DNA of 17,975 nucleotides, from assembly GCA_004321885.1 (NCBI GenBank), contig SCQK01000003.1, positions 1 to 17,975 of the forward strand, in the 5' to 3' direction. How positions within the stretch are numbered: the stretch's first letter is position 1; every line of letters begins with the position of its first letter. Below, one piece after another: positions 2,375-17,975 of the stretch. The position numbers were made by a program, and so were the translations under genes. The stretch comes from Patescibacteria group bacterium. Lineage in GTDB: Bacteria; Patescibacteriota; Patescibacteriia; Magasanikbacterales; GWA2-37-8. The notes below the pieces were generated by a model that was not told where the DNA came from, did no database searches, and worked only from the letters and a program-made list of their open reading frames with translations.

Positions 2375-2505
2375 GGGTCTGTCGCCAAATCACCGCATCT
2401 GTCATTCCTGCGCAAGCAGGAATCCAAAACAACAGCCTTTTAAGCCAAAATATGGATTCCTGCTTTCGCAGGAATGACAACTTTAACCATTTGGCGACAG
2501 ACCCC
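2375..2505. repeat. composite palindromic element: outer 16-bp IR GGGTCTGTCGCCAAAT enclosing two inverted family-A hairpins
   Basis: Outer IR sits at 2375-2390 and 2490-2505. Inner hairpins are TGTCATTCCTGCGCAAGCAGGAATC (2400-2424) and GGATTCCTGCTTTCGCAGGAATGACA (2454-2479). Listed ORFs 2149-2427, 2239-2589 and 2292-2600 are mirror translations of this palindrome (MDSC.RRND...ATDP on both strands). Confidence 0.8.
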
Positions 2506-2520
2506 AAGGGGAGGAAAACC

Positions 2521-2574: not shown

Positions 2575-3606
2575 TTATTCACGGTATAATTTTCGGACAT
2601 CCACCAGTTCAGGATGCTGGCTTAATATGGTTATCGCGTCACTCATGGTTTTTCCCGAATGAAGCGCGATAATAATTCCTTCGGCGTCAGTCAGAGCCAC
2701 CAGCGATGATTTACCGCTCAATACATTCTCCGTCTCCAAGCCAAACAATTTAATCATCGCTGAATTATTTTTATCATTGGCCAGAAACCAGCCGCCCAAC
2801 TTTTCTATATGCTCGAATAAAAAATCATGCGCCGAATCCGGCTCGGGGTAGCGACAGCCGACCTCTAAAATACAAGCATATTTATTTTCATACGGCTCAT
2901 CAATGCCGACATCATCGTATTTTCTTTTTTGGAGAGCAAAGATATAAAACTTTTTATTTTTAGGAATTTTAGTAACGGAAAATTTGTCCAACTCATTTGA
3001 TTTAATAGAATCACCAGGCTTCAAAGGCGCTGTTCCCCCCACTTTAAGAATTCCGAATTTATTTATCCCATTAAGAAAATTAAAATTTGCCAAATTTGGA
3101 TAGAACCTCAAAATAAATAATACGTCCTTCAATCCCCTGTTTGGAAACATACCGGCAATTCTGCCTTCGTGATTTCCAACAATAACAAGTGATTTAATAT
3201 GCTTATTTTCGGGAAGATCAAGACCAAAAAATTCTTCGTCCGTTGCTTGATATGTATCCTCCACTTGCAGCCAGCCACCCATAGTTTGTATCAAAGCGCC
3301 GTCAACGCCGCAATCTTCGTTTATGCACCAGGTGCCCGGTTCTGCCACGCTCACATAAAATTTTTGCCCAGCGGGTATCTTTAGGTGGGGAGCAAAAGTG
3401 GTATCGCCAGGCCCGCCCGGCATTTTGCTTCCAATTGTTAACGAGTCAATCTTTGACGGATTTTCCCACGAGCGATTAATTTTTCGCACGCTGCCTTCCG
3501 GTAATTGGGTGTATGGTTGAATAACAGAGAAAATTACAATAAAAGCAAGGAAAATAATAACTAGGCCGAGAACAACCCATTTAGATTTACTAAAGCCACC
3601 CATCAT
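2575..3606 (-). CDS. hypothetical N-terminally membrane-anchored extracytoplasmic protein, 343 aa
   Basis: An N-terminal hydrophobic segment (WVVLGLVIIFLAFIVIFSVI) follows a short basic stretch. The start lies 3 nt after the upstream gene's stop, so the two are probably translationally coupled. No confident family was identified. An isolated GNHE tetrapeptide is not enough to call a metallophosphatase. Confidence 0.55.
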   Translation of the reverse strand: MMGGFSKSKWVVLGLVIIFLAFIVIFSVIQPYTQLPEGSVRKINRSWENPSKIDSLTIGSKMPGGPGDTTFAPHLKIPAGQKFYVSVAEPGTWCINEDCGVDGALIQTMGGWLQVEDTYQATDEEFFGLDLPENKHIKSLVIVGNHEGRIAGMFPNRGLKDVLFILRFYPNLANFNFLNGINKFGILKVGGTAPLKPGDSIKSNELDKFSVTKIPKNKKFYIFALQKRKYDDVGIDEPYENKYACILEVGCRYPEPDSAHDFLFEHIEKLGGWFLANDKNNSAMIKLFGLETENVLSGKSSLVALTDAEGIIIALHSGKTMSDAITILSQHPELVDVRKLYRE

Positions 3607-3609
3607 ATT

Positions 3610-4593
3610 TCAAAGAACAACTTCTAAAAAACCAATGCTTTCACCGTCGCCTTTTCTGGATTTCATCAATATCTGACACAACTCATCCCAGCGCTCAATT
3701 TCTGTTAAAGTAACGCAACCGAGCGAAAAGCTGCCGGGATGAACATAACGATCGTCGCTTTTATGGGTGGTCTTGAACCAGACCATTGCGAGGTCGGCTC
3801 TATCAAGATAATATCGGCCTCCATCATGAGAATGGTCAGGAATTTTAATGTCATAAAGTTTTCTTTGCCAAGGGTCTGGGTCATCTTTGTAGTCCTGCGT
3901 TTCGTAAGTTTTATTTCCAAACTTTAATAAATTTTTGGATCTGTAATAAATTAGATGAACCGGGCCGGTTTGGTGATTTGTCGATTCCAAATATGAAACA
4001 CCGCCCGATTCTAACTTTACGGAAGCTTTCTCATCACGCCAGGGGTCTTCTAAAATTGTAAAATACTGACGCTTTAAATCTTGCTTGTCTAATTTAACTT
4101 TGAGATATGCAGGCAAGGCAATCTCCATATTTTTATTTTCTAATTTCACGATAGTCCATCCGCCTTTTCCTTTTTCAAAAGAGACATATAAAAAGGCGTC
4201 GGACACTACGGCTTCCAGTGTTATTTCAAAAACAGCGGCTTTTGTTCCCCAGGACTTACCCGATGTTGAATGGGTTTCTTTAATCGGGACCTTGAAAGTA
4301 AGCTGTTTAAATTTTTTTGAGGTATTAATTTCTACATCGCTTTGGACACTGCCGACGTCGTTAAATAAAATGTCTTTTTCAATAACGGTAATTACGGCCT
4401 CGGCTTTAAATATCTGTTGATCAGTTTCAAATTTTCCCACTTCGCTGTCAATTTTAGCCGTTGCGCCGGCTTTGATTTTTTTATCCACGCGTAAAAACTT
4501 TCCCAGTATTTCAATTTCCACGCGAATATCATCACCAATGGAATCGCCGCTGTATTTTATTTTTGAAAGTTTTAATTGAACGGATTTAAGCAT
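3610..4593 (-). CDS. hypothetical protein, 327 aa; the C-terminus weakly resembles the L,D-transpeptidase (YkuD-like) His/Cys catalytic motif
   Basis: ATG-initiated ORF with no signal peptide. The C-terminal segment TTHKSDDRYVHPGSFSLGCVTL has His-x16-Cys spacing like hGT...SxGC(I/V)R in L,D-transpeptidase folds. This rests on motif resemblance alone. Confidence 0.5.
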   Translation of the reverse strand: MLKSVQLKLSKIKYSGDSIGDDIRVEIEILGKFLRVDKKIKAGATAKIDSEVGKFETDQQIFKAEAVITVIEKDILFNDVGSVQSDVEINTSKKFKQLTFKVPIKETHSTSGKSWGTKAAVFEITLEAVVSDAFLYVSFEKGKGGWTIVKLENKNMEIALPAYLKVKLDKQDLKRQYFTILEDPWRDEKASVKLESGGVSYLESTNHQTGPVHLIYYRSKNLLKFGNKTYETQDYKDDPDPWQRKLYDIKIPDHSHDGGRYYLDRADLAMVWFKTTHKSDDRYVHPGSFSLGCVTLTEIERWDELCQILMKSRKGDGESIGFLEVVL

Positions 4594-4866: not shown

Positions 4867-4944
4867 GGGTCTGTCGCCGAATTACTATTTCTGTCATTCC
4901 TGCGCAAGCAGGAATGACAGAAATAGTAATTCGGCGACAGACCC
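4867..4944. repeat. 78-bp perfect palindrome, family A with GGGTCTGTCGCCGAAT terminal inverted repeats
   Basis: GGGTCTGTCGCCGAATTACTATTTCTGTCATTCCTGCG|CAAGCAGGAATGACAGAAATAGTAATTCGGCGACAGACCC. The two halves are exact reverse complements. It lies between the DHS stop (4970) and the DinD remnant. Confidence 0.9.
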
Positions 4945-4969
4945 CAGTATCAATCCACAGCCCAAAAAA

Positions 4970-14231: not shown

Positions 14232-15350
14232 ATGATAAAAAAAATCCTGTTTATCAGTTGTTCGGCCGGTTCGGGCCATATTAAAGCCGCCGAGGCCCTA
14301 CATCTGGCCTGTGCTAAAAAATACCCGCAAATCCAATCGTGGCACTTCAATATTTCCGACGACTGGAATTTTCTTCTGCGCCATTCAGTCACCACTCCTT
14401 ATGAATTCGCCTTAAAGCATTACCCGGCGCTTTTCGGCGCGGCCTACAAACTCACCGACAGCGCCCCCCTCACCAAGGCGGGCCAGCTCTTTAATTTTTT
14501 GCTCCGTTTCGGCGTGCAAAAACATTTGGATAAAATAAGCGAGTTCGGCCCGGAGGCCGTGGTCTATACCCACTTCATCCCGGCGCTGATGCTGTCTAAA
14601 TTTTTGGACGCGCCGCAATACATGCTCGTTACTGATTATTACGCGCACAAAATTTGGCGCGTGCCAAACATGAAAGCGTTTTTCGTGCCGACCGAAGAAA
14701 CCAAAAAAAGCATGGGCAAATTCGCGCCCGCTTGCGCGATTACCGGTTTACCAGTAAGCCCGGAATTCAAAAAAGTAAAACCCATCGCGGAGCTAAAAAC
14801 AAAACTGGGCCTGACAAACGACCAGCCGGTTGTTTTATTTATGCCGACGGTTCCCGGAAAAGTGGATATTGGGAAAGTGGTGCTGTCATTGCGAACGGAA
14901 CGAAGCGGAGTGAAGCAGTCCCCCGCGATTGCGGATGGGATTGCTTCGCCCTATCGGGCTCGCAATGACAAACAGCTAAACATTATTATTATCCTCGGAA
15001 AAAACCAAGGGGATATCGCGCCTTCTGAAAATTTACGGGTCATTAAGCCGGTCCCAAACATAGACGAATACATGCGCATTGCCGACGTCATCGTCACCAA
15101 AGCCGGGGGTATGAGCATTACCGAAATCGCCTATTTGCGCAAGCCAATGCTCATCATCAACCCTATTCCGGGCCAGGAAGAATACAACGCGAAAATTTTC
15201 TGCAAGCTTGGCTACTGCCTCGTTGCCCGCGACAACGACGAACTGGAAGCAAAAATAAAAGCCGCTCTAAGCGGCCAACTTTTCTTCAAGGCGCCGCCGC
15301 TACAGGATGCGGCGGAAAAAATTTTGAACACGATTTTTGGGCAGGGGTAA
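14232..15350 (+). CDS. GT28-family glycosyltransferase of the MGDG-synthase/UgtP (diacylglycerol glycosyltransferase) type
   Basis: N-terminal ILFISCSAGSGHIKAAEAL (cf. UgtP LILTANYGNGHVQVAKTL), central MLVTDYYAHKIWRVPNMKAFFVPTEE, and C-terminal VTKAGGMSITEIAYLRKPMLIINPIPGQEEYNA (cf. [33 protein letters not shown]). Confidence 0.75.
   Translation: MIKKILFISCSAGSGHIKAAEALHLACAKKYPQIQSWHFNISDDWNFLLRHSVTTPYEFALKHYPALFGAAYKLTDSAPLTKAGQLFNFLLRFGVQKHLDKISEFGPEAVVYTHFIPALMLSKFLDAPQYMLVTDYYAHKIWRVPNMKAFFVPTEETKKSMGKFAPACAITGLPVSPEFKKVKPIAELKTKLGLTNDQPVVLFMPTVPGKVDIGKVVLSLRTERSGVKQSPAIADGIASPYRARNDKQLNIIIILGKNQGDIAPSENLRVIKPVPNIDEYMRIADVIVTKAGGMSITEIAYLRKPMLIINPIPGQEEYNAKIFCKLGYCLVARDNDELEAKIKAALSGQLFFKAPPLQDAAEKILNTIFGQG
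14884..14970. repeat. 87-bp element bounded by 11-bp inverted repeats TGTCATTGCGA/TCGCAATGACA, inserted in-frame within the glycosyltransferase CDS
   Basis: Its ends share TGTCATT/AATGACA with family A. It is 87 bp (29 codons), encoding LSLRTERSGVKQSPAIADGIASPYRARND in the inter-domain loop. That loop is about 21 aa longer than the same loop in UgtP. Confidence 0.5.
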
Positions 15351-15354
15351 ATTC

Positions 15355-15822
15355 CTATTGCCTTCTCTCGTCCAGCCCCTGACTCTCGGGCTGGTAATTG
15401 GGCTGGATATAGACGCCTGACTGATTGATGTCTTCGTAGCGGTTTAGCGCCAGCTTGATGGCAAATGTGGTGATGGACCAGGCGGCCAAAATAATAATGA
15501 GCCCGATGACAGAATTAAACATCCATTTTTTCGCTTTAGTCACCTGCTCGTCGTTGCCCCCGGCCGTCATCCACAAAACTCCGGCATAGATGATAATGAC
15601 AACCATGAGCAGTCCCACCAGGCTCAACATAATGCGAATCATTCCGGCCGCGGTGATGCGCGGGTCCACTGGTTCGCCATAGCCCGCGCCTTTTTGGCCG
15701 CCGGCGGCCTGAAACTGGTTGCTGATATCCGCGCCCACGCTTTTATTTACGTCCGCGCTAAAAACAGGCGCCGCGAAAGCGAAGAGGGAAACGAGGAATA
15801 GTAAAATAATTATTTTACGCAT
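15355..15822 (-). CDS. VirB2/TrbC-like pilin family protein (paralog 1 of the tandem array)
   Basis: Signal peptide MRKIIILLFLVSLFAFAAPVFSA, then core LSLVGLLMVVIIIYAGVLWMTAGGNDEQVTKAKKWMFNSVIGLIIILAAWSI. Polar C-terminal tail with no Cys. Start is moved to the ATG at 15822, which overlaps the upstream stop as TGAtATG. Confidence 0.75.
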   Translation of the reverse strand: MRKIIILLFLVSLFAFAAPVFSADVNKSVGADISNQFQAAGGQKGAGYGEPVDPRITAAGMIRIMLSLVGLLMVVIIIYAGVLWMTAGGNDEQVTKAKKWMFNSVIGLIIILAAWSITTFAIKLALNRYEDINQSGVYIQPNYQPESQGLDERRQ

Positions 15823-15823
15823 A

Positions 15824-16339
15824 TCACCACAAATTGCTCCAAAAATTCTTGGCCGAGCCGGTAAAGCCCTTGCCAAAACCCTGCCAAAATCCGCCGGTCT
15901 GGGCCCCGGCGCTTTGGCCCACCTGCCCGGCGCCGGGCTCGGTGACCCGAAACACGCCCATTAAAATAAAGGCGGTCAGGCTATAGGCCGCCACCACGAT
16001 AATCAGGCCGACAACCGAAGAGCGGATAATTTTTTGCGCCTTTTCTACGCGCTCGTCATTGCCCCCGGCTGTCATCCACAAAATGCCAGCGTAGACAGTC
16101 AGTATCAAAAAAACAGTGCCTGTGAGCGACAAAATCACCCGAATTATCCGGCCTACATTTTCGGACAAGGTGGTGTCTGTCACGTTTGTTTCAAAACCGC
16201 CGGTGCCGGCCACATTGGAAGCCATCCCGCCCGGGCCAATGCCGATATCGGGCGCGGCCAAGACCATCGTGACGGATAAAAAGAATAGAGAATAGAGAAT
16301 AGAGAATAGAGAGACGAAGAAAATAATATAATTTTTCAT
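15824..16339 (-). CDS. VirB2/TrbC-like pilin family protein (paralog 2) with a Gly/aromatic-rich C-terminal tail
   Basis: MKNYIIFFVSLFSILYSLFFLS signal peptide, encoded by 4x GAATAGA. Core LSLTGTVFLILTVYAGILWMTAGGNDERVEKAQKIIRSSVVGLIIVVAAYSL. Start is at the ATG at 16339; the listed ORF start at 16447 is an upstream extension. Confidence 0.75.
   Translation of the reverse strand: MKNYIIFFVSLFSILYSLFFLSVTMVLAAPDIGIGPGGMASNVAGTGGFETNVTDTTLSENVGRIIRVILSLTGTVFLILTVYAGILWMTAGGNDERVEKAQKIIRSSVVGLIIVVAAYSLTAFILMGVFRVTEPGAGQVGQSAGAQTGGFWQGFGKGFTGSAKNFWSNLW
16283..16310. repeat. 4 perfect tandem copies of the heptanucleotide GAATAGA within the signal-peptide coding region
   Basis: 16283-16289, 16290-16296, 16297-16303 and 16304-16310 are identical. 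On the coding strand, (TCTATTC)4 encodes SILYSLFSI. Confidence 0.9.
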
Positions 16340-16343
16340 AATG

Positions 16344-16907
16344 CTATAAGGGTGAGCAATCCTGCGCGCAACTACTAACCGGCTGTCCCTGACAAGTGGA
16401 GGGACTTTGGCCGACATAACAAGTTCTACTTTCGAAAACGCCTCCATTAATTTTTACAACACAACAACCAGCATCATTTTGTGAACCGCTTGTCTGCTGA
16501 TTTTGTTGCTGTGACGCTGCGCCGCCGGATGAATTACTCCCGCCCATCTTCGTGGTCACAAAATACGTAATCGCGTAAGCCGACAAAGTGATAAACAAAC
16601 CGATAATGCAGGCCTTGATTATCTTATGCGCTTTTTCCACTTTTTCCTGCTCGCCCTGGGCCGTCATCCAAAGAATGCCGGCATAAACCATTAAAATCAA
16701 AAATAAAGTGCCCACCAGCGACAAAGCGGTTTTAACCACCGTGCCCACCGTGGTGGAAAGCTCTTTTTCCAGGCCAACGTCTCCGACCGCGTTGTCCAAA
16801 GTTTTCATGGCATTGCCCAATCCCTTTTGCGCCAGAGCATCGCCGGACAAAAAGAATAGCGAATAGAGAATAGGGAATAGAGAAACGAGGAAAATAATTT
16901 TTTTCAT
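16344..16907 (-). CDS. VirB2/TrbC-like pilin family protein (paralog 3) with a Cys-rich C-terminal domain
   Basis: MKKIIFLVSLFPILYSLFFLS signal, core LSLVGTLFLILMVYAGILWMTAQGEQEKVEKAHKIIKACIIGLFITLSAYAI. A Ser/Gln-rich linker leads to a tail with 6 Cys (CCVVKINGGVFESRTCYVGQSPSTCQGQPVSSCAQDC). Confidence 0.75.
   Translation of the reverse strand: MKKIIFLVSLFPILYSLFFLSGDALAQKGLGNAMKTLDNAVGDVGLEKELSTTVGTVVKTALSLVGTLFLILMVYAGILWMTAQGEQEKVEKAHKIIKACIIGLFITLSAYAITYFVTTKMGGSNSSGGAASQQQNQQTSGSQNDAGCCVVKINGGVFESRTCYVGQSPSTCQGQPVSSCAQDCSPL
16854..16881. repeat. degenerate heptanucleotide tract (GAATAGC GAATAGA GAATAGG GAATAGA) in the signal-peptide coding region
   Basis: Same position and register as 16283-16310 in the adjacent paralog. 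The two flanking ~60-bp gene 5' ends are about 85% identical. Confidence 0.8.
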
Positions 16908-16926
16908 ACATATACCCCTCTCATTG

Positions 16927-16948
16927 CCCCTCCCTTAAAAGGGGGGGG
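16927..16948. repeat. family B hairpin CCCCTCCC-TTAAAA-GGGGGGGG upstream of pilin paralog 3; contains a G8 tract
   Basis: G8 tract at 16941-16948. Lies 20-40 nt upstream of the ATG at 16907. Confidence 0.55.
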
Positions 16949-16970
16949 ATAAAGGGTGAGGTTTTAAAAA

Positions 16971-17564
16971 TCATTCATGACAACACACATTATCAACGCC
17001 GCCCGGACATAAACCCGACTCTTTAACTTTTGGCGGTAAACAGCTGGCGGCAGGGCCGCAAGAGCCAGTGGAAGAATACTCGCATTTCGTAATACAATTG
17101 CCACTTCTACAAACACTATTGTCACCGCATTTTGTATTATCGTTCTGTCCTTGGCAAGACGCCACTTGCCCTCCCGCGCCGCTCCCCCCGCCACCCCCCA
17201 CCAGATTGGTAAACACAAAGCGCGTAATGGCGTAGGCGGCCAAAACTATCACCAAGCCGATTATCGCCGTTTCCATTATCTCCTTACCCTTCTCCGCTTT
17301 TTCCGGCTTACCCAAGGCTGTCATCCACAACACGCCGGCGTACAGAATAAGCCCGAAAAAAATAATGCCGATGAGCCCCAGGCCCACGCCGATAATGTCG
17401 CCGATAAGTACCGGCACTGTTTTTTGGCTGATGGGCAGTTTGGAAAGCTCGGCGTTGTCGGCCGCGGTCTTTAAGCCGTATTTATCCTGCGCCAAAACAG
17501 CGGCGGCGGATAGAAGGCCGGTGATCAGCACAAAAATAAGGATTATTTTTTTTGTCAGTGACAT
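16971..17564 (-). CDS. VirB2/TrbC-like pilin family protein (paralog 4) with a Cys-rich C-terminal domain
   Basis: MSLTKKIILIFVLITGLLSAAAVLAQ signal, core IIGVGLGLIGIIFFGLILYAGVLWMTALGKPEKAEKGKEIMETAIIGLVIVLAAYAI. A Gly-rich linker leads to a tail with 10 Cys (…CQGQNDNTKCGDNSVCRSGNCITKCEYSSTGSCGPAASCLPPKVKESGLCPGGVDNVCCHE). Start is at the ATG at 17564; the listed ORF to 17696 runs through leader repeats. Confidence 0.75.
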   Translation of the reverse strand: MSLTKKIILIFVLITGLLSAAAVLAQDKYGLKTAADNAELSKLPISQKTVPVLIGDIIGVGLGLIGIIFFGLILYAGVLWMTALGKPEKAEKGKEIMETAIIGLVIVLAAYAITRFVFTNLVGGGGGSGAGGQVASCQGQNDNTKCGDNSVCRSGNCITKCEYSSTGSCGPAASCLPPKVKESGLCPGGVDNVCCHE

Positions 17565-17576
17565 AGTTATACGTTG

Positions 17577-17661
17577 GCTCCATAGTCCCCGCAGGGGCTG
17601 TGGAGCCAGCTTGCAACTTGCAACACGGCTCCACAGTCCGCCTTTGGCGGAACTATGGAGC
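17577..17661. repeat. family D hairpins (GGCTCCAYAG ... CTRTGGAGCC) plus direct repeat CTTGCAA x2 in the pilin leader
   Basis: 17577-17608 GGCTCCATAG-TCCCCGCAGGGG-CTGTGGAGCC and 17626-17661 GGCTCCACAGT-CCGCCTTTGGCGG-AACTATGGAGCC. Confidence 0.75.
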
Positions 17662-17678
17662 CACCCGTGAAAGTATTT

Positions 17679-17777
17679 CCCTACAGAGGGTTGCACGCGC
17701 GACCCCGACTGTGGATTCCTGCTTTCGCAGGAATGACAGTTGAAACAGGAACGCGCGCGCGAACCCTCTGTAGAGGG
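17679..17777. repeat. nested palindromic element: outer IR CCCTACAGAGGGTT..CGCGCG / CGCGCGCG..AACCCTCTGTAGAGGG around a family-A core (17713-17738)
   Basis: The core GGATTCCTGCTTTCGCAGGAATGACA is identical to 2454-2479. The outer arms are about 22 bp. Confidence 0.75.
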
Positions 17778-17790
17778 TTCCCATATTAAA

Positions 17791-17975
17791 CTAAGGCGTA
17801 ACAGGCGTGCCTCCGGCTCCGGTTGTCGCCGAAACCAAAGACTTCAGCACAAAGTTGGCCAAGGCGTAAGCCGCGAAAATAATAATCAGACCGATAATGC
17901 CCGAGAAAATCCATTTCTTGCCCTGGGTAACTTTCTCGTCATTGCCGCCGGCCGTCATCCAGGTAAAGCCGCCGA
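17791..17975 (-). CDS. VirB2/TrbC-like pilin family protein (paralog 5), N-terminus beyond the window
   Basis: The minus-strand frame gives GGFTWMTAGGNDEKVTQGKKWIFSGIIGLIIIFAAYALANFVLKSLVSATTGAGGTPVTP* with a TAG stop at 17791-17793. No start lies in the window, so it is absent from the ORF track. Confidence 0.7.
   Translation of the reverse strand, partial: GGFTWMTAGGNDEKVTQGKKWIFSGIIGLIIIFAAYALANFVLKSLVSATTGAGGTPVTP

What the first reader, a model, noticed from the sequence alone, without database searches (positions are those of the whole stretch)
15355..17975. Tandem array of five VirB2/TrbC-like pilin paralogs with a shared core and divergent C-terminal tails, two Cys-rich
Five consecutive minus-strand genes, plus a sixth at 13059-13415, share the same architecture. 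Each has a signal peptide and a two-helix membrane core with the near-invariant motif YAG(I/V)LWMTAGGN(D/P)E..KAKK...IGLII..AAY. Their C-terminal extensions differ: absent, polar, Gly/Trp/Phe-rich, or Cys-rich with 6 and 10 Cys. Junctions are tight: TGAtATG overlap and a 4-nt gap. That suggests co-transcription and a recently expanded family. A core pilin scaffold with exchangeable, possibly disulfide-knotted tip domains looks like a surface-display or adhesion repertoire. In episymbiotic CPR bacteria, T4SS-like pili are thought to mediate host attachment. No VirB4/B6/B11 genes lie in the window, so the machinery must be elsewhere.
Basis: partly seen in the sequence, partly recalled or inferred. 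Interest (0 to 1): 0.8.

Follow-up and report, generated by a model that had tools for sequence, protein, structure and literature searches.

The report
Pilin gene array with swappable tails
This is the end of a conserved row of about nine small pilin-like secretion-system genes typical of ultrasmall Patescibacteria; such rows are already published, but here two subunits carry exchangeable cysteine-rich end domains, one resembling modules found on cell-wall-degrading enzymes, which may act in host binding.

Summary
Six minus-strand genes all pass the Pfam T4SS_pilin (PF18895) threshold: A >17975-17791 (cut by the contig end), B 17564-16971, C 16907-16344, D 16339-15824, E 15822-15355 and F 13415-13059. 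Each complete protein has a signal peptide and two membrane helices. Tails differ: none, polar, Gly/Trp/Phe-rich, 6 Cys, 10 Cys.

Tandem VirB2-like pilin arrays in Patescibacteria are already published (Wang 2023; Quinonero-Coronel 2025), so the array itself is not new.

Comparison with 80 related genomes changes the reading.
- The window holds positions 4-8, plus the detached ninth gene, of an ancient syntenic array of about nine genes. It is not a recent expansion.
- The array sits among housekeeping genes. In relatives a solute-binding-protein gene leads it, and no VirB4 lies within 10 kb.
- Cys-rich tails are cassettes. Two species have position-6 pilins 96% identical up to the end of helix 2, followed by unrelated tails.
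- Tail cysteine counts are almost always even.

Best reading: pilin subunits that display envelope-binding domains. Pilus assembly and binding are inferred, not shown.

The parts
17791..17975 (-). Pilin gene A, 3' part only (60 aa visible; 5' end lost at the contig end). Ortholog of array position 4; short tail KSLVSATTGAGGTPVTP.
   Evidence: Translation. PF18895 33.1 bits. Core is 66-74% identical to position-4 genes of syntenic genomes, whose tails read NSLVSATTGP.
17565..17790 (-). A-B intergenic spacer of 226 nt carrying palindromic repeat elements (GTCATTCCTGC..GCAGGAATGAC type at 17712-17742; inverted repeat 17575-17598 / 17640-17663).
   Evidence: Sequence. Repeat families D5, D6, D8, I5, I8 and I13. 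A gap between positions 4 and 5 is also present in relatives.
16971..17564 (-). Pilin gene B (197 aa), position 5. Signal peptide, two-helix core, Gly-rich linker, 10-Cys C-terminal domain.
   Evidence: PF18895 34.9 bits. AF2 helices 50-81 and 87-124, linker disordered, tail pLDDT 84-91. Identical NCBI protein EPN28_00640.
16974..17171 (-). B tail domain (residues 132-197, 10 Cys). The C-terminal 6-Cys module C-x7-C-x5-C-x10-C-x7-CC maps to 16980-17084.
16908..16970 (-). B-C spacer of 63 nt with a palindromic CCCTCCC..AAAAGGGG element, followed by a GAGAGGGG ribosome-binding site.
   Evidence: I1 and D12; copies also at 13601-13653 and 14191-14227.
16344..16907 (-). Pilin gene C (187 aa), position 6. 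Gln/Ser-rich linker and a 6-Cys 'GCC' tail (Cys-rich part 16347-16469).
   Evidence: PF18895 39.8 bits. The tail is a divergent member of a recurrent GCC-x9-14-C-x7-8-C-...-C-x3-C family seen only on pilins. Identical protein EPN28_00635, also seen in run SRR8426592.
15824..16339 (-). Pilin gene D (171 aa), position 7, with a Gly/Trp/Phe-rich tail. A perfect 7-nt repeat (4.4 copies) lies at 16282-16312 in the signal-peptide codons.
   Evidence: PF18895 34.1 bits. The same tail type occurs in L003 and L011. Tandem repeat. 55 nt at the 5' end are 91% identical to gene C (D7).
15355..15822 (-). Pilin gene E (155 aa), position 8, with a polar 33-aa tail without Cys.
   Evidence: PF18895 44.2 bits; sub-threshold TrbC hit of 15.6 bits. 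Weak tblastn hits to plasmid genes annotated as pilin-like or TrbC/VirB2.
15260..15276 (.). Terminator-like GC hairpin flagged on both strands, about 80 nt downstream of the stop of E and inside the 3' end of the convergent glycosyltransferase gene. Candidate end of the array transcript.
   Evidence: Pattern scan only.
14232..15350 (+). MGDG-synthase-like glycosyltransferase, convergent with the array. Its place between the array and the lone pilin is conserved: its homolog cluster occurs in 14 of the 81 sources, the window included.
   Evidence: Pfam MGDG_synth and Glyco_tran_28_C. Synteny.
13526..14185 (+). tRNA-Arg(tct) 13526-13598 and tRNA-His(gtg) 14113-14185, conserved neighbours of the lone pilin. 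Here they are split by an extra insert of about 460 bp (13654-14112).
   Evidence: ARAGORN and Rfam. In six relatives the two tRNAs lie 13-96 nt apart.
13059..13415 (-). Pilin gene F (118 aa), the detached ninth array member, tail-less, followed by rpsO, NYN and pnp.
   Evidence: PF18895 42.7 bits. Positional orthologs in L003, L005, L006, L010 and L013.

Best explanation
The region is the distal part of a conserved, co-oriented block of about nine anciently diverged VirB2-like pilin genes (Pfam PF18895). It holds positions 4-8 plus the detached ninth gene. The block is typical of ABY1-class Patescibacteria (Magasanikbacteria and Falkowbacteria relatives).

Shown. Each product has a cleavable-looking Sec signal peptide and two long hydrophobic helices joined by a short charged loop (WMTAGGNDE..KAKK). 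This puts both termini outside the cell. Paralogs keep their order across genomes. C-terminal tails are modular and are replaced exactly at the end of helix 2, both between genomes and between paralogs. Cys-rich tails have even cysteine counts. B's tail folds in silico into a small beta-rich domain. The last 35 residues of that domain have beta-defensin-like cysteine spacing, and the same module recurs on secreted peptidoglycan hydrolases and an RNase.

Inferred. The subunits are taken out of the membrane and assembled by a VirB4-type T4SS encoded elsewhere in the genome, forming a filament or envelope-spanning conduit. In that assembly the C-termini face outward, as in conjugative pili. Tail-less or short-tailed paralogs would form the scaffold. 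Tailed paralogs (B, C, and perhaps D and E) would act as minor or adaptor subunits that decorate it with disulfide-stabilised binding domains on flexible Gly/Ser/Gln linkers. The Cys-rich domains would bind the envelope (cell wall) of the host or prey bacterium, and their cassette-like exchange would tune partner specificity.
For: Family membership:
- All six genes exceed the PF18895 threshold.
- All six give consistent sub-threshold hits to NCBIfam 'Mbov_0395 family pilin-like conjugal transfer protein'.
- hhalign against such a protein in a VirB4-containing Pontibacillus cluster gives probability 97.3% over 125 columns. Against a Macrococcus 'TrbC/VirB2 family protein' next to VirD4 it gives 87%.

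Architecture: signal peptide plus two helices.

Synteny and positional orthology: the order is SBP, then 8-9 pilins, then the glycosyltransferase, tRNA-His/Arg, the lone pilin, rpsO, NYN and pnp. Same-position core identity is 46-74% in the five best-conserved syntenic genomes (42-47% for F in two others) against 31-59% between paralogs.

Tail modularity: position-5 and position-6 tails differ between genomes. L006 and L013 position-6 proteins are 96% identical for 120 aa and then have unrelated tails.

Disulfides: tail Cys counts are even in 74 of 77 Cys-bearing tails.

Literature: pilin arrays lie inside the essential T4SS locus of Southlakia (PMC10633639). 441 arrays are reported in Patescibacteria (PMC12102498). 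ABY1 genomes are listed as VirB4-positive.
Against: - No T4SS machinery gene was found in the window. None is recurrent within +/-10 kb of the arrays in 80 related genomes. The link to a T4SS therefore rests on homology and on other lineages.
- PF04956 TrbC/VirB2 itself is below threshold.
- No solved pilin is recovered by sequence or Foldseek. A helical hairpin is too simple a fold to be diagnostic.
- No pilus has been observed for this family.
- Binding function comes only from domain co-occurrence.
- Whether this MAG has virB4 could not be checked.
- Expression and co-transcription are not shown.
Confidence: 0.55

Rival explanations
1. The proteins act without a T4SS. They stay in the cytoplasmic membrane as two-helix anchors that present small extracellular domains. 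They may work with the carbohydrate-type solute-binding protein that leads the operon in relatives, for example as a capture or uptake platform at the contact zone.
For: In 45 of the 46 loci that hold the SBP gene, a same-strand pilin gene follows it directly. No VirB4, VirB6 or T4CP is recurrent near the arrays. The context is housekeeping. No pilus has been shown for this family.
Against: Homologs lie inside T4SS clusters in Saccharibacteria and near virB4 in 1135 of 1948 assemblies. Profile homology links them to pilin-like proteins of VirB4-containing conjugation clusters. Nine conserved paralogs of a mere anchor would be hard to explain.
Confidence: 0.2
2. The array is a recently expanded repertoire for antigenic or phase variation, with one or a few alternative pilins expressed at a time.
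For: Published analogy to the Bartonella and Anaplasma VirB2 paralog arrays. A perfect 7-nt repeat (4.4 copies) lies in the signal-peptide codons of gene D and could shift frame. Genes C and D are 91% identical over 55 nt at the 5' end, which suggests local gene conversion.
Against: Paralogs are old and positionally orthologous across genomes. The gaps of 1-4 nt between C, D and E suggest co-expression. No invertible element or silent-cassette architecture was seen. Four repeat copies is a short tract, and it is unique to this organism.
Confidence: 0.1
3. The tails are C-terminal pro-domains that are cleaved during maturation, as happens to the C-terminus of RP4 TrbC (from my own knowledge). 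They would then be released as soluble cysteine-rich, defensin-like peptides acting on the host cell. The pilin core would serve as an export carrier.
Against: No conserved cleavage motif is seen at the linker. Many tails (polar, Gly/Trp/Phe-rich) are not peptide-like effectors. Neither an antimicrobial role for this module nor cleavage has been tested.
Confidence: 0.1

Closest known systems
VirB2-like pilin arrays of Patescibacteria (Southlakia epibionticum ML1 T4SS locus SEML1_0006-0019, Wang et al. 2023, PMC10633639; survey by Quinonero-Coronel et al. 2025, PMC12102498)
   Same: The Pfam family is the same (PF18895). Both are tandem arrays of divergent paralogs; the survey reports 2-11 genes with about 25% mean identity. 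The host is monoderm, the products are Sec-type preproteins, and no relaxase is in sight.
   Different: Here and in 80 related ABY1-type loci the array is not next to virB4. It sits among housekeeping genes, is led by a solute-binding-protein gene, and is interrupted by a glycosyltransferase and two tRNAs. Arrays reach 14-15 genes. Positional orthology, modular Cys-rich tails and the SBP link do not appear in the text passages and supplement portions of those papers that I term-searched or read, and a three-term library search found nothing.
Pilin-like small membrane proteins of monoderm conjugation systems (NCBIfam NF045849 'Mbov_0395 family pilin-like conjugal transfer protein'; 'TrbC/VirB2 family protein' of Macrococcus plasmids)
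   Same: The architecture is signal peptide plus two helices, with a similar loop and helix-2 motif (G-D/N-x-x-x-x-x-A-K...IGL.I..AA). hhalign probability is 97% and 87%. These relatives are encoded beside VirB4-like or VirD4-like genes.
   Different: They are single-copy, lack Cys-rich tails and sit within mobile conjugation modules. The window proteins score below the NF045849 cutoff (22-33 against 40 bits).
TrbC/VirB2/TraA conjugative pilins of diderm T4SS (Pfam PF04956; F, RP4 and Ti systems)
   Same: They are small Sec-exported two-helix hairpin subunits with termini outside. The multi-paralog precedent in Bartonella and Anaplasma is cited.
   Different: PF04956 is below threshold. No similarity to solved pilins was found. 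There are no adjacent virB genes. Long folded C-terminal domains are not a feature of the classical pilins, as far as I know.
Beta-defensins (trans-defensin fold; e.g. human beta-defensin 2, PDB 1fd3; AvBD11, 6qeu)

Membership tests
Pfam PF18895 T4SS_pilin | Score at or above the curated gathering threshold (26.6 bits) | tested here: met
   All six genes score 33.1-44.2 bits. The precomputed PF18895 label is on nearly all homologs.
Pfam PF04956 TrbC/VirB2 pilin | Score at or above the gathering threshold (27.9 bits) | tested here: not met
   Only gene E hits, at 15.6 bits and E 0.019.
VirB2-type T4SS pilin (functional class) | Signal peptide followed by two hydrophobic helices joined by a short charged loop | tested here: met
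   Hydropathy shows three hydrophobic segments in each complete protein. AF2 gives the helical hairpin 50-81 / 87-124 in B.
VirB2-type T4SS pilin (functional class) | Encoded with, or demonstrably used by, a VirB4-containing T4SS | tested here: not met
   No T4SS gene was found in the window. None is recurrent within 10 kb in 80 related loci. The rest of this MAG could not be searched. Related ABY1 genomes are listed as VirB4-positive.
VirB2-type T4SS pilin (functional class) | Polymerises into an extracellular pilus | not testable with these tools
   Needs microscopy or biochemistry. The reviews read here speak only of a 'potential to elaborate conjugative pili'.
NCBIfam NF045849 Mbov_0395 family pilin-like conjugal transfer protein | Score at or above the cutoff (40 bits) | tested here: not met
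   21.7-32.7 bits for all six. Homology is nevertheless supported by hhalign probability 97.3%.
Patescibacterial VirB2-like pilin array (as published) | Two or more PF18895 genes in tandem, or separated by one non-pilin gene, that are strongly divergent | tested here: met
   Five tandem genes plus one detached gene. Full-length identity to gene E is 28-45%, and core-only identity among the six paralogs is 31-59%.
Type IV pilin (T4P, PilA-like) | N-terminal class III signal or N-methylation motif | tested here: not met
   No N_methyl hit in any of the six. The N-termini are ordinary Sec signal peptides. True N_methyl proteins lie upstream of the array in relatives.
Beta-defensin / trans-defensin fold (B tail, residues 161-195) | Six-Cys spacing C-x4-8-C-x3-5-C-x9-13-C-x4-7-CC | tested here: met
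   C-x7-C-x5-C-x10-C-x7-CC, read from the sequence. The consensus spacing is quoted from my own knowledge.
Beta-defensin / trans-defensin fold (B tail, residues 161-195) | Significant structural or sequence match, and C1-C5/C2-C4/C3-C6 connectivity | tested here: inconclusive

The most novel reading that the evidence does not exclude
VirB2-like pilins of ABY1 Patescibacteria act as a display scaffold for interchangeable, disulfide-knotted domains that target the host envelope. One of these domains carries a beta-defensin-like 6-Cys module. The same module is found on peptidoglycan hydrolases, and the full 10-Cys domain that contains it on a large protein of DPANN archaea. On this reading the T4SS filament of these episymbionts would bind, or even locally breach, the partner's cell wall. 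Cassette swapping of the tails would set host range. The conserved SBP gene leading the operon hints at a link to uptake rather than export.
Probability: 0.2. Interest if true: 0.8.

Novelty: new variant of a known kind. Interest (0 to 1): 0.55.

Why it matters
The T4SS and its pilin array are essential for the epibiotic life of the one genetically tractable Patescibacterium, yet their role is unknown. If the tails are host-envelope-binding modules displayed on the pilin scaffold, they give concrete handles on how ultrasmall bacteria recognise partners. The domains are about 40-70 residues long and can be expressed, tested for binding and used as probes.

Tail swapping also gives a sequence-level marker for host-range change. 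The recurrence of the same cysteine module on muramidases, amidases, a toxin RNase and a DPANN surface protein suggests an undescribed family of envelope-targeting domains. If the tails do none of this, the locus is simply one more member of an already published class of pilin arrays.

Tried and rejected
- Exact look-up of gene C's contig gave only a 1.4-kb Logan contig, so there was no way to extend beyond the window.
- Foldseek of the full-length B model against PDB gave only generic helical hairpins, all with E of at least 0.4. A PDB sequence-profile search of the pilin alignment gave only eIF2B noise. Solved pilins were therefore neither confirmed nor excluded.
- Foldseek of the tail against PDB gave nothing with E below 3.
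- A PDB sequence search with the B-tail profile hit only putidaredoxin noise. The C tail hit nothing.
- Pfam found no family for either Cys-rich tail.
- The word-indexed homolog search with the GCC-tail alignment returned nothing, so the distribution of the GCC tail outside the fetched data is unknown.
- tblastn of gene F against plasmids gave no match. The F plasmid accession AP001918 is not in the collection.
- Rfam in E-value mode on 13400-14300 gave only tRNAs and spurious miRNA hairpin hits on the palindromic element.
- The promoter and terminator scan gave no convincing internal promoter in the A-B spacer.
- T4P pilins were considered and rejected, because there is no N-methylation motif.
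- 'Recent expansion' was considered and rejected on the basis of positional orthology.


Full report
WHAT IS THERE

The ORF listing and the minus-strand sequence give six genes of one family.
- A: >17975-17791. Only the last 60 codons are present.
- B: 17564-16971, 197 aa.
- C: 16907-16344, 187 aa.
- D: 16339-15824, 171 aa.
- E: 15822-15355, 155 aa.
- F: 13415-13059, 118 aa.

All six exceed the Pfam gathering score for PF18895 'T4SS_pilin', at 33-44 bits against 26.6. All give consistent sub-threshold hits to NCBIfam NF045849 'Mbov_0395 family pilin-like conjugal transfer protein'. The alignment shows the shared core, with invariant G, WMTA, G, E, G, A and F. Hydropathy gives a signal peptide and two long hydrophobic segments in every complete protein. 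AlphaFold2 on B with 18 homologs gives helices 50-81 and 87-124, a disordered Gly-rich linker and a confident beta-rich tail with pLDDT 84-91.

Gaps between genes are 226 nt (A-B), 63 nt (B-C), 4 nt (C-D) and 1 nt (D-E). The window is the complete 17,975-bp contig of an NCBI 'Patescibacteria group bacterium' MAG, with B = EPN28_00640 and C = EPN28_00635. The array is cut by the contig end.

The larger ORFs scanned in the rest of the window hit housekeeping families (DUF4143 ATPase, deoxyhypusine synthase, CN-hydrolase, agmatine deiminase, MTAP, NYN, an MGDG-synthase-like glycosyltransferase), and two ORFs had no hit. PNPase and S15 are assigned by clustering with syntenic genes, and the phosphoribosyltransferase was recognised by eye only. 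There are three tRNAs. No T4SS machinery gene was found.

WHAT IS ALREADY KNOWN

Wang et al. [quoted passage not shown]

Quinonero-Coronel et al. 2025 (PMC12102498) used PF18895 and reported 441 VirB2 arrays of 2-11 genes in 383 Patescibacteria assemblies, with about 25% mean identity. They raised antigenic variation or host adaptation as possible roles.

[quoted passage not shown] NCBI already names some homologs 'pilin'.

A tandem array of VirB2-like pilins in a CPR genome is therefore a known kind of feature. In the same literature, host adhesion is assigned to type IV pili, not to the T4SS.

HOMOLOGY TO T4SS PILINS

PF04956 TrbC/VirB2 itself is below threshold. No solved pilin is recovered by sequence or Foldseek, but a helical hairpin is too simple a fold for that to count against homology.

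tblastn of gene E against PLSDB gave five weak hits. Four fall on genes annotated as pilin-like conjugal transfer protein or TrbC/VirB2 family protein. Those genes sit in monoderm conjugation clusters beside a VirB4-like CD1110 ATPase, or beside VirD4-like and pLS20_p028 proteins.

hhalign of the six-gene profile against the Pontibacillus protein gives probability 97.3% over 125 columns. Against the Macrococcus protein it gives 87% over 31 columns. I accept that the window genes belong to the VirB2-like pilin superfamily of monoderm T4SS.

COMPARATIVE GENOMICS

A scan of species-representative genomes returned 80 loci, mostly Magasanikbacteria and Falkowbacteria, which the 2025 paper's Table S1 places in class ABY1. 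A core HMM found 597 distinct pilin ORFs in those loci and the window. Nearly every well-covered locus holds a tandem array of 5-15 genes.

The closest loci are syntenic with the window. The order is two T4P-like N_methyl proteins, an unknown gene, an NTP-transferase and a carbohydrate-type solute-binding protein. Then come 8-9 pilins, the MGDG-synthase-like glycosyltransferase on the other strand, tRNA-His and tRNA-Arg, a lone pilin, rpsO, NYN and pnp. The window thus holds positions 4-8 and the lone ninth gene. Positions 1-3 and the SBP gene lie beyond the contig end.

Core identities show positional orthology. Each window gene is 46-74% identical to the same-position gene in the five best-conserved syntenic genomes, falling to 42-47% for F in three others, but only 31-59% identical to its own neighbours. 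The family is therefore old and ordered, not recently expanded.

Among the 30 commonest neighbour families and 45 large neighbour ORFs there is no recurrent VirB4, VirB6 or coupling protein. By contrast, in 45 of the 46 loci that hold the SBP gene, a same-strand pilin gene follows it directly. Magasanikbacteria and Falkowbacteria genomes are listed as VirB4-positive, so machinery elsewhere in the genome is plausible. I could not check this for the present MAG.

THE TAILS

Across the 597 pilin ORFs, 491 have short Cys-free tails. Cys-rich tails with at least 4 Cys occur in 27 of the 81 sources (80 loci plus the window), mainly in the Magasanikbacteria-like group and mainly at positions 5 and 6.

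Cysteine counts are even in 74 of 77 Cys-bearing tails. This is what disulfide-bonded extracytoplasmic domains predict, although orthologs are not independent observations.

Orthologous cores carry non-homologous tails. Position 5 has the 10-Cys domain in the window, no tail in L002, a doubled GCC domain in L005 and L010, a 4-Cys domain in L006 and L013, and 22 Cys in L004.

The clearest case is position 6 in L006 against L013. The proteins are 96% identical for 120 residues up to the end of helix 2. After that they have unrelated tails, 27 aa with 2 Cys against 57 aa with 4 Cys. Each of those tails resembles a tail elsewhere in its own array. This points to intra-array recombination with a breakpoint at the junction between core and tail.

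Within the window, C and D share 55 nt at 91% identity at their 5' ends. This also fits local gene conversion.

Gene D's Gly/Trp/Phe tail recurs in L003 and L011. Gene C's tail is a divergent member of a 6-Cys 'GCC' family found only on pilins in the data at hand.

GENE B'S TAIL

A profile of the 10-Cys domain found only 38 proteins among 1.84 billion representatives. About half are pilins of about 200 aa with the same tail. The rest carry 2-10 copies of its C-terminal module, C-x6-8-C-x5-C-x8-10-C-PGG-x4-CC.

Those non-pilin carriers include:
- GH25 muramidases;
- a polysaccharide deacetylase;
- a Tae4-type peptidoglycan amidase;
- a GH19 enzyme;
- a barnase-type ribonuclease;
- a 1026-aa Nanoarchaeota protein that carries the complete 10-Cys domain.

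The cysteine spacing fits the beta-defensin pattern with each loop one residue longer. I regard 'beta-defensin-like' as a lead and not as established. The co-occurrence with cell-wall enzymes is the stronger argument that the module targets bacterial envelopes.

MECHANISM

Shown:
- family membership;
- the architecture of signal peptide plus two helices;
- the conserved ordered array;
- tail modularity;
- even Cys counts;
- a confident small-domain model.

Inferred:
- N-out, C-out insertion in the membrane;
- extraction and polymerisation by a distal VirB4 T4SS;
- outward-facing C-termini;
- tailed paralogs acting as minor subunits that display envelope-binding domains;
- tail exchange tuning partner specificity.

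Rivals are a T4SS-independent membrane display platform linked to the SBP, a phase- or antigen-variable repertoire, and tails released as soluble peptides. None is excluded. The second is weakened by positional orthology and by the tight coupling of C, D and E.

VERDICT

The core interpretation (VirB2-like pilins with exchangeable tails) is supported. 'Recent expansion' and the attachment claim as stated are not supported.

The array is a new member of a published class. Four things were not found in the literature I could search:
- the conserved nine-position organisation;
- the location away from virB4, led by an SBP gene;
- the cassette-like Cys-rich tails;
- the shared envelope-enzyme module.

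I rate it a new variant of a known kind and of moderate interest.

Noticed in passing
window 13599-14112 (between tRNA-Arg 13526-13598 and tRNA-His 14113-14185): The two tRNAs lie 13-96 nt apart in six syntenic relatives but 514 nt apart here. The extra GC-rich DNA of about 460 bp has no convincing ORF and no Rfam family. It starts with a palindromic CCCTCCCCTAAAAGGGGAGGG element that recurs at 14191-14227 and 16913-16965. It may be a small insertion or MITE-like element.
   Followed up: partly
window 2375-2506, 4867-4946, 12988-13009, 14051-14105, 17712-17765: A second family of palindromic repeats (GTCATTCCTGCGCAAGCAGGAATGAC, some within longer 49-nt units) is scattered in intergenic DNA, including the A-B pilin spacer. 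These repeats create spurious ORFs such as 'SFLRKQES' and 'IPACAGMT'.
   Followed up: partly
window 16282-16312 (gene D) and 16853-16884 (gene C): A 7-nt tandem repeat (AGAATAG on the + strand) lies inside the signal-peptide codons. It has 4.4 perfect copies in D and 4.6 imperfect copies in C. A unit that is not a multiple of three could shift frame by slippage. The repeat is unique to this organism among the 81 sources. The Logan contig L001 ends about 6 nt after a copy of it.
   Followed up: partly
L003, L005, L006, L010, L013 and 41 other loci (e.g. L010 6062-7450): A carbohydrate-type extracellular solute-binding protein gene (SBP_bac_1/8, about 465 aa) directly precedes a same-strand pilin gene in 45 of 46 loci. 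This holds even in Falkowbacteria-type loci, where that pilin is separated from the main six-gene array. No ABC permease was seen next to it. The term 'solute' does not occur in the main text of the 2025 T4SS survey.
   Followed up: partly
window 14232-15350 and its homolog cluster, found in 14 of the 81 sources (window included): An MGDG-synthase-like glycolipid glycosyltransferase is conserved between the pilin array and the detached ninth pilin. Conjugative pili contain stoichiometric lipid (my own knowledge), so a link to pilus lipid is conceivable. It was not tested.
   Followed up: no
L010 1127-3612 and equivalents in L003, L015, L023: Two type IV pilin-like proteins with N-methylation motifs (about 620 and 212 aa, one with a CarboxypepD_reg domain) lie a few genes upstream of the VirB2-like array in the syntenic relatives. 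T4P-type and T4SS-type pilin genes are therefore neighbours in this clade.
   Followed up: no
window 2575-3606 and 3610-4593 (minus strand): Two adjacent ORFs of 343 and 327 aa have no Pfam hit. The second ends with HPGSFSLGCVTL, which resembles the L,D-transpeptidase (YkuD) active-site motif by eye only.
   Followed up: no
locus titles (e.g. L002, L003, L006, L007): Many clearly patescibacterial contigs, with the same synteny and pilin arrays, are deposited as 'uncultured Gammaproteobacteria bacterium'. One is deposited as Methylomirabilis, one as Bacillota and one as Nanoarchaeia. These are probably taxonomic mislabels or binning errors in the public records.
   Followed up: no
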